Below, piece after piece: positions 31,771 through 43,211 of a stretch of DNA of 64,000 bases. Within the stretch, counting starts at the first letter, position 1; each line of letters starts with the position of its first letter. The notes below the pieces were generated by a model. The model did no database searches. It saw nothing but the letters and a program-made list of their open reading frames with translations, and was not told the origin of the DNA. Position numbers and translations under genes: made by a program. Source of the stretch: the human T2T-CHM13v2.0 reference genome, Homo sapiens; the NCBI RefSeq assembly GCF_009914755.1, contig NC_060925.1, one strand, 5' to 3'.

Positions 31771-32049
31771 GAGCCTGCGCCTTTGGGAGGCTGAGGTGGG
31801 CGGATCACAAGGTCAAGAGATCAAGACCATCCTGGCCAACATGGTGAAACCCCGTCTCTACTAAAAATACAAAAATTAGCCAGGCGTAGTGGCGCATGCC
31901 TGTGGTCCCAGCTACTCAGGAGGCTGAGGCAGGAGAATTGCTTGAACCCGGGAGGCGGAGCTTACAGTGAGCTGAGATCGCGCCACTGCACTCCAGCCTG
32001 GGTGATAGAGCAAGACTCTGTCTCAAAAAAAAAAAAAAAAAAAAAAAAA
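31771..32049 (+). mobile_element. Alu (5'-shortened) in the ELK4 3'UTR
   Basis: Dimer; TSD gaaataagcacatct. Confidence 0.95.
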
Positions 32050-33179
32050 GGAAATAAGCACATCTTCGCTCCTGACTGGGGAGGCTTCACTTTGAATTCT
32101 ACCTTCCTAACTGCATCTTTAAAACTATCATAACCTCTAACAACCTTAAACATAAAGGAAAGGTGATAAATGTATAGTAGAAAATGAGGTAAAATGAACA
32201 GGAAAAAGACAGGTCCTTCACTTGGTTATCTTCTAATTGAGAAAACCACTACATGTTGTTTCAAGTTATCTGATCGAATCTTTTACTCAGAGATGTTTCA
32301 AATATTCAAAATCCAAGTTCATCCTCCTAAAAGTGATCATTTCCCATGCTGTATTCCATGGGCATATAATCATACCACCCAGAGGGCAAAGAGCATTTCT
32401 GTGCTAGATGTGAGGTCCCATATTCTTACTAGGTGTTCCAAAAACTGTCTTAAACCCCAGGTCTAAAAATCTTTCTATAGTGAAATAGACTAGCTCCATG
32501 CTCTGTTGACAGGTTCAGACAGGATCATACATATGGCTAAGAGATCCACCCTGAATAAAGGTAAACAAGATGCCTTTTCATGGAGTTGCTTACACGTTAT
32601 AGTTCACACAAAACAATCTCCCCAGTATGACTGCTCCAATCTTACTTTGTATGAATAGGAATGATTCTTCTTCTTCCACTGCTTAGGAACAGCTCACTTT
32701 AAGTCATTCAACAGAGCACACTTAGTCCTAAAGATGCCAATTCATTTCACAAATATTTCTTTAAATAATAGATTCTAAGCATAATTTTTCCTGGCCAAAG
32801 GGTCCCAATAGCCAGAAGGAGTAACTTTGTTCTTAATTGCTTTTGCAAAGCACAGTCACTAAAGCCCACCAAAAACTTCTTCAGCACAAAGCTCAAAATA
32901 TTTTTAAAGGAGAAAAGAAAAGGAAGGAAGGAAAGAAAAAGAAAAGGAAAAGACAGAGGGAGGTGGAGTTTAGACTCCAATTAAGGCATTTTTATACATA
33001 TAGTCCAACTTGAGTCCTATTCAAAGAGAATCCTAAAAAGATGTTTTCAATGGGGAATGGCAAAAATCACAATAGTCTATTATCAGCATTGTAGAACTAT
33101 CAATTGCTCACTTCAAATGCAATCATGTTGAATGTCTGTTTCTTCGTTCCTCGGTTCTCTCATTCCACAAGTGCATAGG

Positions 33180-33278
33180 TTATGTCTTCTGTAGGTCTGG
33201 GGAAAATGGGCCAGGGGTGGAAGGTCCATCCAGCCCAGACAGAGTGAATGGCCCATGACTGTTCAGTACAGAAGGAAA
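33180..33278 (-). CDS. ELK4: ELK4 exon 5 CDS (FPSVLNSHG...PDLQKT*)
   Basis: tctcAG acceptor; completes the FQFP docking motif across the junction; TAA 33180-33182; total 69+291+39+32=431 aa. Confidence 0.97.
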   Translation of the reverse strand, partial: FPSVLNSHGPFTLSGLDGPSTPGPFSPDLQKT

Positions 33279-34253
33279 CTGAGAAAGAAAACAAAACACA
33301 TTATCATCCTATTACTCAACCCCAACTTTTACTTTCTATCCTACTCTATTACCTGAGGCAAAACACAACAGCCTTCTGTAATGGCTCACAGGACAAAGGC
33401 AGTGGCTGTTTATCATGAAAGAATATGATGTCATAACAAAAACTAGAAACAAAAATCTTTTGTCCTAACATATTAAATATTAACATTCTCCAACTTACCT
33501 CAATGGAGTAGAAACAAAGAACAACCTGTACCCTCCTTCATATCCTAAGGTACACAGGTTTACAATTAACCTCAAATGAAGGTTTTAGAAAGTTCAAGTA
33601 AATGACAATATGCACTACAGAGTGTAATTCAATTATGGAGCAAATCATAAACCCTCAAAAAGAGATCCAGAAAGGTATAAATAGCACTCATCCTAGAAAA
33701 GGGTTCCCCATCAAGTATTCTGAGGCCAGCTCTACAGGGAGATTCCAGGCTGAAGCTACAGGAGCACTATGACTTTGCTTAAGGTCTCAGCTGACTCTAT
33801 AACTCAATTATCTGCTCATGTGTGGCAATGAAAAAAAATATGAAAAATTCTCAACTTTTTTTTCTATTCAATAATTTTAAACGTTGGCAAAAAATAAAAA
33901 GCAGAGAGATTTTTAATTTTCCTCTTTTTCCCTACCATTTCATTTCTAAAAGAATGAGAAGTTAAATTACAAAATATAAGAAAATCAGAGATAGTCAACC
34001 ATGAATAAGTAAATGAATTGACTCCAAGAAAGTCTTTAAGTTATAACATCTAAGTGTTTTGGGCAAAATAATGGCTAAACCCATTAGGAATGGCAAGAAC
34101 TTTCCTAACGTCTTGGTGAAGAGATAATATTCATTTTTTTTAAAATGTACATATAAAATGTTGATAAATTATCAATTCTGACTGAGGGAGAAATGGGACT
34201 GTTTGATATACCATTTTCAAGACCTTTCTCTATTAAAAAAAAAAAAATGCTTG

Positions 34254-34544
34254 GGCCGCGTGCAGTGGCTCATGCCTGTAATCCCAGCACTTCGGGAGGC
34301 TGAGGCGGGCGGATCACCTGAGGTCAGGAGTTTGAGACCAGCCTGATCAACATGAAGAAACCTCGTCTCTACTAAAAATACAAAATTAGCCTAGCATGGT
34401 GGCACATGCCTATAATCCTGGCTACTCGGGAGGCTGAGGCAGGAGAACCGCTTGAACCCAGGAGGCAGAGGTTGCAGTGAGCTGAGATCGTGCCATTGCA
34501 TTCTGGCCTGGACAACAAGAGCAAAACTCCGCCTCAAAAAAAAA
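34254..34544 (+). mobile_element. Alu
   Basis: Full dimer. Confidence 0.93.
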
Positions 34545-34595
34545 TTTTTTTTAATCTTTAATTAAAAGAGGGAACCTATGTGCAGAGATCCCCCA

Positions 34596-40519: not shown

Positions 40520-40559
40520 AGCAATGAGCTGAAAGAATATAGATAAGATATGTGATAAT

Positions 40560-40800
40560 ATTAACAGCCAACACCTATTTAACACTGTATGTCATGCACT
40601 GTTTTAAGTGCTCTAAATGTATTAATTCATCCCCACATTTCTATAAGGTAGATACTACTGCATCCTCATTTTACGTAAGAAAAAACTGATTCATAAGAGG
40701 GTTAAGGAACTTGTACAACATCACACAAGTAAACGGTGAAGCTAAGATCTAAGCCCAGGCAATCTGGACCCAGAATCCAAACTCTTAAGGATGCCACGCT
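40560..40800 (-). mobile_element. MIR next to the ELK4 exon 2 acceptor
   Basis: catcctcattttacgtaagaaaaaactga...gttaaggaacttgtacaacatcacac is MIR core. Confidence 0.75.
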
Positions 40801-41289
40801 GCTTAAGAAATGTCTTAAGCAACAAGCAACTTGCAAGGAGGATAAAGCTAGTTCCCTAAATTATAGGAAAAAACAATGATTGTCAATCACTAGTGACTGT
40901 CAATCACTGTTGTTAAATTTGAATCCTAAAATCTCATTGCTGTATTCTCTCAGGAGACCACCATTCCAGCATCTGTCTAAATCAACCCGGTTTGGTTATC
41001 TGCCTGTGAGTGTATGTGTTTGTGTCTATCTCAGGGTGGCCCAGGGACTGAGGTGTAGGGAATAATCTACTTTTGCTCCAACTGGTTTCCATCACCATAA
41101 ATGTCATTTACATACAAATTGGCAGCATTTTGAATTCAGCAAAGTGTTCTCTTTTCTGTCACTGTTCTGTCCACAGTGATTCCATCTGCAAAGATTCTCC
41201 TTTGATTAGCAATCTTTATGTGATTATCAAGGCATGGATTGAAGAAAAATATTTTAATATCTTAAGTTTCAGGATCTCCCTGTTTAGGC

Positions 41290-41507
41290 CAGAGTTTCTC
41301 AATTTTGGCATTATTGGTTTTGGGGGCCAGATAATTCTTTGTTGTGGGAAGCTGTCCTGTACACTGCAGTTTGTCTAACAGCATACCCGGCCTCTACCCA
41401 CTAGATGCCAGTAGCACCGCCTGCCCCATTGAGACCATCAAAAATATCTCCAGACACTGCCAAATATTCCCCCAGGGGTCAAAGTCATCCCGGTAGATAA
41501 CCATTGG
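41290..41507 (-). mobile_element. MER20 (hAT-Charlie)
   Basis: ggccagataattctttgttgtggg...ccactagatgccagtagcac...ccagacactgccaaat matches the MER20 reverse complement. Confidence 0.88.
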
Positions 41508-42018
41508 TTTAGGCAAAGGAGCAGCAAGGAATGCTCTCTCATAAAGGTATTTTCCTCATACAATTTCAAAACACCTTTCTATTAGGAAGAATTCTTTAGG
41601 GCAGAAACTCTGGCCAAATCCGTATAAGTGTGTCCTAAGAATCTTATGATTGAATACTTCACACACACAAAAAAAAACAAAAACAAAAAACCTTCCTTTC
41701 TCTAGTAATGAGATCTCAATGGGTTAGAATAGAGTTTGAAAACAAATTATATCAATACCATTAAAACACTACAAGAACAGATCAAAACTGGACTACAACA
41801 AAATTTAAAATTGTTGTGCTGCAAATAATGCCATCAAGTGAGAAGACAATCCCCCAAATGGGAGAATATTTTCAAACCATGTATCACAAAGGGAGCCTGC
41901 ATCCAAAATATATTAAAAAACGCCTACGACTAAAAAAAAAAAGCAAAGAATTTGAAAAGACATCATAGCAAAGAAGATATACAAATAGCCAATAAACACA
42001 CGAAAAAATGCTCTACAT

Positions 42019-43211
42019 TGGCTGAATCTGCCTACTTGTCGCCACTATCACTGCCACCCACCTCCCGGCTCCCCCAGGTTCCTTCAGCCCAGCCTAGTTC
42101 AGCCGGGTTCCCAACAGGATGAAATTCGTGTACAAAGAAGAGCATCCGTTCAAGAAACGGGCGGCTCCGAGAGCAAGAAGACTGGAAAGAAATACCCGGA
42201 CCGGGTGCCGGTGATAGTAGAAAAGGCTCCCAAAGCTCGGATAGGAGACCTGGACCAAAAGAAATACCTGGTGCCTTCTGATCTCACAGCTGGTCAGTTC
42301 TGCTGCTGCTGCTTCTTTTTTTTTTTTTTTGTGAGATGGAGTCCCACTCTGTCACCCAGGCTGGAGTGCAGTGGCGCAATCTGGGCTCACTGCAACCTCC
42401 GCCTCCTGGGTTCAAGCGATTCTCCTGTCTCAGCCTCCCGAGTAGCTGGGATTATAGGTGCATGCCACCACGCCCAGCTAATTTTTGTATTTTTAGTAGA
42501 GGTGGGGTTTCACCATGTTGGTCAGGCTGGTCTTGAACTCCTGACCTCATGATCCGCCTGCCTTGGCCTCCCAAAATGCTGGGATTACAGGCATAAGCCA
42601 CTGCGCCCGGCCCAGTTCTACTTCTTGATCCAGAAGCGAATTCATCTCCGAGCTGAGGATGCCTTGTTTTTCTTTGTCAACAATGTCATTCTGCCCACCA
42701 GTGCCACAATGGGTCAGCTCTACCAGGAACACCATGAAGACTTCTTTCTCTACGTTGCCTACAGTGACCAAAGTGTCTACAGTCTGTGATGCTGCTACCC
42801 CTGAGCTGGAAGGGGGGTCTCATTCTACAGAGAGGTGGCCTCCCTTTCTTGACCTCCTCCTCCAAGCTCAAACACCACCTCCCTTATTCAGGACCGGCAC
42901 TTCTTAATGTTTGAGGCTTTCTTTCCAGCCTCTCTTAGGAGGGGTAATGGTGGAGTTGGCATCTCGTACCTCTCCTTTCTCCTTTCTTCCCCTTTCTCTG
43001 CCCGCCTTTCCCATTCTGCTTTAGACTTCTTGATTGTCAGTCTCTGTCACATCCAGTGATTGTTTCAGTTTCTGTTCCCTTTCTGACTGCCCAAGGGGCT
43101 CAGAACCCCAGCAATCCCTTCCTTTTACTACCTTTTTGGGGGGTAGTTGGAAGGGACTGAAATTGCAAGGGGAAGGTAGGAGGCACATCAATAAAGAAGA
43201 AACCACCAAAA
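42019..43211 (+). pseudogene. GABARAP: GABARAP processed pseudogene, antisense in ELK4 intron 1
   Basis: ATG at 42119 ([11 protein letters not shown]); +2 frameshift before [18 protein letters not shown]; Alu insertion; resumes [24 protein letters not shown] to TGA 42787-42789; intronless; AATAAA 43190-43195; A-tail; 16-bp TSD aaaaaatgctctacat (42003-42018 / 43212-43227). Confidence 0.96.
42316..42612 (-). mobile_element. Alu inserted into the GABARAP retrocopy
   Basis: Dimer splitting the ...GQF|YFLI... codons; TSD cagttc..cttctt. Confidence 0.96.

What the first reader, a model, noticed from the sequence alone, without database searches (positions are those of the whole stretch)
31771..42612. 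Latent splice donor 68 nt after the ELK4 stop could yield a 1373-nt circRNA carrying the entire ELK4 ORF
Seen: the ELK4 strand has a 5' splice-site motif GAA|GTGAGC at 33112/33111 inside the 3'UTR. Back-splicing it to the exon 2 acceptor (40528) would join 216+873+117+167 = 1373 nt, which is the full 431-codon ORF plus stop and a 77-nt non-coding linker. The nearest Alu beyond the donor (31771-32049, +) and the nearest Alu upstream of exon 2 (42316-42612, -, inside the GABARAP retrocopy) are inverted. Established: inverted flanking Alus promote back-splicing. Inference: such a circle would keep start and stop but drop the uORF-bearing exon 1 and ~8.5 kb of miRNA-site-rich UTR. I recall ELK4-derived circRNAs being catalogued but cannot verify their junctions here.
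Basis: partly seen in the sequence, partly recalled or inferred. Interest (0 to 1): 0.8.

Follow-up and report, generated by a model that had tools for sequence, protein, structure and literature searches.

The report
Known circular RNA circELK4, correctly predicted

Summary
Every sequence statement in the finding holds. The donor GAA|GTGAGC sits at 33112/33111, 68 nt after the TAA stop. The exon 2 acceptor is at 40528. The exon sum is 216+873+117+167 = 1373 nt, with a 431-codon ORF and a 77-nt linker.

The predicted junction is in print. A supplement of PMC8788096 lists circELK4 at hg19 chr1:205585605-205593019. Its 100-nt junction probe target reads exactly as window(-) 33161..33112 followed by 40528..40479. 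PMC8810173 names it hsa_circ_0000175. A bioRxiv preprint says it carries the full ELK4 coding region and that the circle was cloned and Sanger-sequenced.

The two Alus are real, inverted and nearest to the splice sites. They are the only long inverted match between the two flanks. However, the intron 1 Alu has stronger and closer partners elsewhere, so the role of this pair is plausible but unproven. The donor motif alone is no better than chance, but it is the first GTRAG after the exon 5 acceptor.

One addition: the longest ORF on the circle is 439 aa. It starts at a 3'UTR ATG (33126) and crosses the junction in frame. I found no evidence of translation.

The parts
33106..33114 (-). Back-splice donor (5' splice site) GAA|GTGAGC. 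The last exonic base is 33112, 68 nt after the ELK4 stop codon, inside the annotated terminal exon.
   Evidence: Read directly. It is the donor of the published circELK4 junction. It is the first GTRAG after the exon 5 acceptor. Its intronic hexamer GTGAGC is the same as that of the exon 1 donor.
33112..33278 (-). The 167-nt part of the terminal exon included in the circle: the last 99 coding nt with the TAA (33182-33180), then 68 nt of 3'UTR.
   Evidence: hub annotation.
33124..33126 (-). ATG in the 3'UTR part of the circle, in frame with the ELK4 ORF across the back-splice junction. It opens a 439-aa ORF, which is ELK4 preceded by 8 circle-specific residues (MIAFELIA).
   Evidence: longest ORF round the circle; context TTCAACATGA.
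35593..35709 (-). ELK4 exon 4 (117 nt), internal exon of the circle.
   Evidence: Hub annotation; splice sites CAG|GTAATT and ...TTGCAG| read.
36602..37474 (-). ELK4 exon 3 (873 nt), internal exon of the circle.
   Evidence: Hub annotation; splice sites read.
40313..40528 (-). ELK4 exon 2 (216 nt) with the start codon at 40519-40517. Its 5' end is the back-splice acceptor side of the junction. It encodes the start of the Ets domain.
   Evidence: Pfam Ets PF00178, E 3.2e-28, residues 6-68 of the 69 aa encoded.
40529..40548 (-). 3' splice site of exon 2: pyrimidine-rich tract and AG (TCTTATCTATATTCTTTCAG|).
31771..32049 (+). Alu, sense on the + strand and so antisense in the ELK4 transcript. It has a 3' A-run and the flanking direct repeat TAAGCACATCT. 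It lies 1062 nt beyond the donor inside the 3'UTR.
   Evidence: sequence print; Metazoa_SRP 70.1 bits.
42313..42612 (-). Alu, sense on the - strand and so sense in the ELK4 pre-mRNA. It lies in intron 1, 1784 nt upstream of the exon 2 acceptor, inserted in the GABARAP pseudogene. It is inverted relative to the 3'UTR Alu.
   Evidence: 265-nt inverted match, 85.3% identity, 297 bits.

Best explanation
The region encodes the known exonic circular RNA circELK4 (hsa_circ_0000175).

Shown. A 5' splice site inside the annotated terminal exon of ELK4, with its last base at 33112, 68 nt past the stop codon, is joined to the 3' splice site of exon 2 (40528). By exon sum the circle is 1373 nt: exons 2, 3 and 4 plus the first 167 nt of exon 5. 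It therefore holds the complete 431-codon ELK4 ORF with its own start and stop.

Inferred mechanism. The donor is the first GTRAG after the exon 5 acceptor, so it defines a 167-nt stretch the size of an internal exon. The annotated terminal exon offers no acceptor downstream of it, so its only partners are upstream acceptors. The acceptor most likely to be still free is that of exon 2, behind the longest intron (intron 1, 7742 nt). Once introns 2-4 are removed, the 3'UTR Alu (31771-32049) and the intron 1 Alu (42313-42612) are the only long inverted repeats left across the two flanks, and their pairing probably helps bring the sites together. I put the odds that this pair contributes materially at about 0.5.

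Function. The RNA is abundant and stable, and print treats it as a biomarker, a miRNA sponge or an IGF2BP3-bound RNA. Its use as a template for ELK4 protein is possible but unshown; I put that at about 0.1.
For: - Sequence. The donor, acceptor, stop, exon sum and ORF are all confirmed.
- Identity. In the supplement of PMC8788096 the circELK4 row gives chr1:205585605-205593019, minus strand, length 7414, and a junction target identical to the two window 50-mers. PMC8810173 Table 2 gives the same coordinates as hsa_circ_0000175, ELK4.
- Full ORF and whole-circle cloning with Sanger sequencing: preprint 10.1101/2022.02.01.478715 (passages).
- Abundance. It was among the top 100 circRNAs in myeloma bone marrow. 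It was one of the four strongest IGF2BP3-bound circRNAs in a gastric cancer RIP-seq. [quoted passage not shown] 2019.
- Donor position. It is the first GTRAG after the exon 5 acceptor, at 167 nt; the next is at 581 nt.
- Alus. They are inverted, about 85% identical and nearest to the sites. They give the only long inverted match between 24578-33111 and intron 1: 297 bits, with the next of the 11 matches at 53.6 bits. The intron 1 Alu is the best of the 5 opposite-orientation partners of the 3'UTR Alu, by a small margin (-446.2 against -444.4 kcal/mol).
Against: - On motif alone the donor is ordinary: 89 of 522 GT sites in the terminal exon score as well or better, equal to shuffles.
- The Alu pair is not favoured by pairing strength. 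It ranks 25th of 50 opposite-orientation pairs among the 15 Alus of the gene, and 9th of the 10 possible partners of the intron 1 Alu. Stronger partners lie closer: 39493-39818 in intron 2 (-518.2), 37551-37854 (-503.6), and 43864-44166 within intron 1 itself (-498.4). Those pairings would favour an exon 2-only circle, an exon 2-4 circle or no circle at all.
- I saw no Alu-deletion, minigene or RNase R data for this circle.
- Two sources list its 'length' as 4577 rather than 1373. A form that retains introns 3 and 4 is therefore not excluded by anything I could read. The preprint's gel and Sanger figure are not held as text.
- The idea that the donor lacks a downstream acceptor rests on the RefSeq table given by the hub. 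I could not consult other annotations.
Confidence: 0.85

Rival explanations
1. The inverted Alu pair named by the reader (31771-32049 with 42313-42612) is the necessary driver: without its pairing the 33112 donor would stay silent.
For: The two Alus are inverted, about 85% identical over about 265 nt, and nearest to the two sites. They give the only long inverted match between the two flanks. It is established (recalled) that inverted Alus across flanking introns promote back-splicing.
Against: The pair ranks 25th of 50 in predicted duplex energy and 9th of 10 among partners of the intron 1 Alu. A stronger partner within intron 1 lies about 1.25 kb away. The Alus sit 1062 and 1784 nt from the splice sites. 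Reviews say circELK4 was also studied in lupus-prone mice. Mice lack Alus (recalled), but I did not see the mouse junction.
Confidence: 0.3
2. Circularisation does not depend on the Alus. It is driven by splice-site kinetics or RNA-binding proteins, or it goes through re-splicing of a partly processed transcript that still holds intron 1.
For: The donor is the first GTRAG after the exon 5 acceptor and defines a 167-nt unit. No annotated acceptor lies downstream of it (hub table). Intron 1 is the longest intron, 7742 nt. Alu pairing does not favour this circle over others, yet this is the ELK4 circle that the profiling papers list.
Against: No RNA-binding-protein or kinetic data were seen. The one clean inverted repeat across the flanks is exactly where the Alu model needs it.
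Confidence: 0.3
3. The junction does not come from a circle. It comes from a linear RNA with repeated exons (trans-splicing or exon repetition) or from a reverse-transcription artefact.
For: I saw no RNase R or poly(A)- data for this junction in the passages read.
Against: The junction is found by independent approaches. These are total RNA-seq and a junction probe panel in several prostate cohorts, the GSE77661-based list, and divergent-primer RT-PCR with cloning and Sanger sequencing of the whole circle. It is also enriched in urinary extracellular vesicles. The junction uses canonical GT and AG sites, which template switching would not require.
Confidence: 0.03
4. The circle works as a cap-independent messenger. 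It yields full-length ELK4 (431 aa) or a 439-aa form that starts at the 3'UTR ATG and crosses the junction.
For: The circle holds a complete ORF with start and stop. The longest ORF round the circle is 439 aa and begins at 33126 with a purine at -3. The preprint raises protein-coding potential. circELK4 is strongly bound by IGF2BP3, which I recall to be an m6A reader.
Against: None of the 15 papers that hold both 'circELK4' and 'translat' showed translation data on circELK4 in its listing or in the passages I read. In the passages I read, the preprint does not say whether circELK4 is among the 11 circles it scored as having both an ORF and a circIRES. Two short upstream ORFs (17 and 16 aa) precede the in-frame ATG in the linker. 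As I recall, most circRNAs that contain a start codon show no ribosome association.
Confidence: 0.1

Closest known systems
circELK4 / hsa_circ_0000175 (hg19 chr1:205585605-205593019)
   Same: It is the same object. The published junction target equals the window sequence on both sides of the predicted junction. The gene and strand are the same, and the genomic span matches within 3 nt (7414 against 7417). It has been reported to contain the full ELK4 coding region.
   Different: There is no biological difference. Two sources list a 'length' of 4577, whereas the exon sum is 1373 nt. The named Alu pair and the junction-crossing 439-aa ORF did not appear in any passage I read.
Sry circular RNA of mouse testis (Capel et al. 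1993; recalled, and cited in the preprint's introduction)
   Same: It is a circle that carries the whole coding region of its gene, formed between an acceptor upstream of the start codon and a donor downstream of the stop, with long inverted repeats in the flanks.
   Different: Sry is a single-exon circle flanked by very long inverted repeats. circELK4 is a four-exon circle that uses a normal exon 2 acceptor and a donor inside the terminal exon, with single Alus about 1-1.8 kb away.
Start-codon-containing ('AUG') circRNAs such as circZNF609 (recalled; circZNF609 appears in the Table 2 passage only as a circRNA entry)
   Same: The circle begins at the exon that holds the annotated start codon, directly behind a long first intron.
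   Different: As I recall, those circles lack the natural stop, and their ORF ends shortly after the junction. circELK4 keeps the natural stop because its donor lies in the 3'UTR. No paper in the library holds both 'ELK4' and 'AUG circRNAs'.
Circles promoted by inverted Alus across the flanks (Zhang et al. 2014; Jeck et al. 2013; recalled)
   Same: One inverted Alu pair lies across the two flanks.
   Different: The downstream 'flank' is not an intron but the rest of a 3'UTR exon. Competing Alu pairings inside the gene are stronger and closer.

Membership tests
Exonic circular RNA (back-splice product) | A downstream 5' splice site is joined to an upstream 3' splice site, and the junction is observed in RNA. 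| tested here: met
   The published junction target for circELK4 (supplement passage of PMC8788096) equals window(-) 33161..33112 followed by 40528..40479.
Exonic circular RNA (back-splice product) | Canonical GT after the donor and AG before the acceptor. | tested here: met
   GAA|GTGAGC at 33112/33111 and ...TTTCAG|CTC at 40529/40528.
Exonic circular RNA (back-splice product) | Closed circle: RNase R resistance, no poly(A) tail, and the whole circle amplifiable with divergent primers. | not testable with these tools
   Print only. The preprint reports divergent-primer PCR, cloning and Sanger sequencing of the whole circle (passages). I saw no RNase R data in the passages read.
Circle promoted by inverted Alus | Alus in opposite orientation in the upstream and downstream flanks. 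| tested here: met
   31771-32049 (+) and 42313-42612 (-) are 85% identical over about 265 nt and give the only long inverted match between the flanks. An SRP-type hit confirms the Alu nature.
Circle promoted by inverted Alus | Pairing across the flanks is favoured over competing pairings within a flank or across other exons. | tested here: not met
   The pair ranks 25th of 50, and 9th of 10 among partners of the intron 1 Alu. Stronger partners lie at 39493, 37551 and 43864. The picture improves only if introns 2-4 are removed first, which is an inference.
Circle promoted by inverted Alus | The circle is lost when either repeat is removed. | not testable with these tools
   No such experiment was seen in any passage read.
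Start-codon-containing (AUG) circRNA | The circle includes the exon with the annotated start codon. | tested here: met
   The ATG lies 9 nt into exon 2, which forms the acceptor side of the junction.
Translated circRNA | An ORF with a start codon on the circle. | tested here: met
   A 431-aa ELK4 ORF and a 439-aa ORF that crosses the junction.
Translated circRNA | An internal entry element (IRES or m6A) and ribosome or peptide evidence. | not tested
   I only counted DRACH motifs (44 in the circle, no control), which says nothing. No translation data on circELK4 appeared in the listing or in the passages read.

The most novel reading that the evidence does not exclude
circELK4, described in print as the most abundant circRNA of prostate tumours, is translated without a cap. 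The main product on the circle would then be a 439-aa protein rather than plain ELK4. That protein would start at the 3'UTR ATG at 33126 and read across the back-splice junction, adding eight circle-specific residues directly ahead of the Ets domain (which starts at ELK4 residue 6). It would be made free of the exon 1 uORF and of 8.5 kb of 3'UTR control. A second untested thread: in prostate, the circle may be fed by read-through transcription from SLC45A3, which as I recall splices into the same exon 2 acceptor.
Probability: 0.08. Interest if true: 0.65.

Novelty: already known. Interest (0 to 1): 0.22.

Why it matters
The finding does not add a new object. The circle, its junction and the fact that it carries the whole ELK4 ORF are all in print.

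It does show that a reader working from raw sequence placed a real and very abundant back-splice junction exactly. It did so at an unannotated donor inside a terminal exon, where circRNA donors are not usually sought.

Three questions remain open:
- Is the single inverted Alu pair needed?
- Which internal structure is right: 1373 nt, or the 4577 listed in two sources?
- Does a circle with a complete transcription-factor ORF, or its junction-crossing 439-aa version, ever make protein?

The last question is worth a proteomic and ribosome-profiling look in prostate tissue, given the reported abundance there.

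Tried and rejected
- MaxEntScan and SpliceAI scoring of the donor could not be run: no models are on the script machine. I used a plain 9-position consensus count and a GTRAG count with 200 mononucleotide shuffles instead.
- I counted DRACH motifs in the circle (44, of which 10 lie within 100 nt of the junction) but ran no control, so I draw nothing from it.
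- ViennaRNA duplexfold energies are for isolated Alu pairs. Same-orientation pairs already give about -154 kcal/mol (55 pairs, range -175.7 to -125.7), so only the ranking is used.
- Conservation of the donor in other mammals could not be tested: no vertebrate genomes are held. The primary mouse and human lupus paper (Xu et al. 2021) is not in the library, and I saw only what two reviews say of it.
- The searches 'ELK4' + 'AUG circRNAs' (0 papers) and 'ELK4' + 'circRNA' + 'last exon' (7 papers, none on this point in the passages) gave no discussion of the terminal-exon donor.
- 'SLC45A3-ELK4' + 'circRNA' gave 28 papers, 12 listed. In the three I opened, no passage links circELK4 to the read-through chimera. 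The other 25 were not read.
The supplements of the bioRxiv preprint (Table S1, Figure S4) were not asked for; they may give the sequenced length of the circle.
- Earlier findings of this scan were not open.
- I did not resolve whether 'circ-ELK4 (exon 4-3)' of PMC6144802 is this circle under another exon numbering or a different one.

Full report
**1. The observation**

On the minus strand the window reads ...GCATTTGAA|GTGAGC. The last exonic base is 33112, and the ELK4 TAA stop is at 33182-33180, so the donor lies 68 nt after the stop. The exon 2 acceptor reads ...TTCTTTCAG|CTCATTGCT ATG, with the first exonic base at 40528.

Joining the exons by coordinate gives 216+873+117+167 = 1373 nt. 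The product holds a 431-aa ORF that ends in TAA and a 9+68 = 77-nt linker. Exon 1 holds one uATG (48454) that opens a 36-aa uORF, and 8534 nt of 3'UTR lie beyond the donor. Exon 2 encodes the start of an Ets domain: Pfam PF00178, E 3.2e-28, residues 6-68 of the 69 aa encoded.

**2. The Alus**

I ran blastn of the two candidate elements against the whole window and got 50 and 61 HSPs.

- 31771-32049 (+) and 42313/42316-42612 (-) match each other in inverted orientation at about 85% identity over about 262-265 nt.
- No Alu hit falls between 32050 and 33111, or between 40529 and 42312.
- The 3'UTR copy ends in a long A-run on the + strand and is flanked by the direct repeat TAAGCACATCT (sequence print).
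- Rfam places Metazoa_SRP at 31879-32026 (+), with 70.1 bits against a gathering score of 70, as expected of a 7SL-derived element.

**3. Is the donor more than chance?**

Not as a motif. The 8701-nt terminal exon has 24 GTRAG sites, against 15.5 +/- 3.9 in 200 shuffles. Of its 522 GT sites, 89 match MAG|GTRAGT as well as the candidate (6 of 9), against 87 +/- 9 in shuffles. Its position is what stands out: it is the first GTRAG after the exon 5 acceptor, at 167 nt, and the next is at 581 nt. Its intronic hexamer GTGAGC equals that of the exon 1 donor.

**4. What it is**

The predicted circle is in print.

- Supplement passages of PMC8788096 (prostate cancer circRNAs) list circELK4 at chr1:205585605-205593019, minus strand, genomic length 7414, with a 100-nt junction target. 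Its two halves are identical to window(-) 33161..33112 and 40528..40479, which I printed by coordinate.
- Table 2 of PMC8810173 gives the same coordinates as hsa_circ_0000175, ELK4.
- The window span is 7417 nt, 3 nt more than in hg19. I could not locate the difference.
- The preprint 10.1101/2022.02.01.478715 states that circELK4 is one of only two circRNAs in its hepatic stellate cell set with the parental coding sequence fully preserved. It also states that the whole circle was amplified with divergent primers, cloned and Sanger-sequenced (passages; figures and tables not seen).

The circle is abundant and widely used as a marker.

- It was validated in prostate cohorts.
- It was among the top 100 circRNAs in myeloma bone marrow.
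- It was one of the four strongest IGF2BP3-bound circRNAs in a gastric cancer RIP-seq.
[quoted passage not shown] 2019.
- According to reviews, it has been proposed as a miR-27b-3p sponge in lupus nephritis (primary paper not seen).
- 35 papers hold the circBase id, mostly on rheumatoid arthritis and lupus markers (listing).

**5. How it probably forms**

Shown: canonical GT and AG at the two sites, and one inverted Alu pair across the flanks.

A search of the 3'UTR beyond the donor (24578-33111) against intron 1 for inverted matches gave 11 matches at E up to 1. The Alu pair gave 297 bits, and the next match gave 53.6 bits from a degenerate Alu fragment at about 29806-29955.

The gene holds 15 sizeable Alus: one in the 3'UTR, three in intron 4, six in intron 2 and five in intron 1. 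Among the ten possible partners of the intron 1 Alu it ranks 9th. It falls behind 39493 (-518.2), 37551 (-503.6) and 43864 (-498.4, in the same intron), among others. For the 3'UTR Alu, however, the intron 1 Alu is the best of five partners, by a small margin.

Alu pairing alone therefore does not predict that this circle should dominate. My inference rests on three points:

- The donor defines a 167-nt unit the size of an internal exon.
- It has no annotated acceptor downstream to compete for it.
- It finds the exon 2 acceptor still free behind the 7742-nt intron 1.

Once the shorter introns 2-4 are gone, the named Alu pair is the only long complement left across the flanks. I give about even odds that the pair contributes materially, and lower odds that it is necessary.

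**6. Coding potential**

Round the circle the longest ORF is not 431 aa but 439 aa. An ATG at 33126, 15 nt before the donor, reads across the junction in frame with the ELK4 start. It adds eight residues, MIAFELIA, directly ahead of the Ets domain. Two short ORFs of 17 and 16 aa start earlier in the linker.

I found no translation evidence. The 15 papers that hold both 'circELK4' and 'translat' include the preprint, which speaks only of potential. In the passages I read, it does not say whether circELK4 is among the 11 circles it scored as having both an ORF and a circIRES.

**7. Comparison and verdict**

This is circELK4 itself, so it is already known. It resembles the Sry circle in carrying a whole ORF, and start-codon circles such as circZNF609 in beginning at the start-codon exon (both recalled). 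It is unusual among circRNAs in using a donor inside a terminal exon. The Alu mechanism and any translation remain untested.

Noticed in passing
window 33126 (-) across the junction to 40519: The longest ORF on the circle is 439 aa. It starts at a 3'UTR ATG and crosses the back-splice junction in frame, giving ELK4 an 8-residue circle-specific N-terminal extension. I did not see this in any passage read.
   Followed up: partly
window 33112-40528; Two sources list the 'length' of hsa_circ_0000175 as 4577, while the exon sum is 1373 nt. Exon 2 plus everything from the exon 3 acceptor down to the donor is 216+4363 = 4579 nt in this window. The listed value may therefore come from a transcript model that keeps introns 3 and 4. 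This is my inference only.
   Followed up: partly
window 37475-40312 (intron 2): Intron 2 holds six Alus in strictly alternating orientation. The strongest predicted pairs in the gene involve 39493-39818 and 39950-40251, the latter only about 60 nt from the exon 2 donor. These pairings would favour an exon 2-only circle, or loops within the intron.
   Followed up: partly
PMC6144802: [quoted passage not shown] I did not resolve whether it is a different ELK4 circle or this one under another exon numbering.
   Followed up: no
window 31877-31928 (+) and 31945-32004 (-): Rfam gives hits below gathering score to mir-1268 (50.1 bits) and mir-3135 (40.3 bits) inside the 3'UTR Alu. These probably reflect Alu-derived miRNA models rather than genes here.
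   Followed up: no
window 29806-29955: A degenerate Alu fragment lies in the ELK4 3'UTR, in the same orientation as the 31771 copy.
   Followed up: no
window 48344-48454 (-), exon 1: The ELK4 5'UTR has a single uATG, which opens a 36-aa arginine-rich uORF that ends within exon 1.
   Followed up: partly
window 40528 acceptor; SLC45A3 lies upstream of ELK4 outside the window: As I recall, the prostate read-through chimera SLC45A3-ELK4 splices into ELK4 exon 2, the same acceptor the circle uses. circELK4 is reported as very abundant in prostate tumours. No passage I read links the two.
   Followed up: partly
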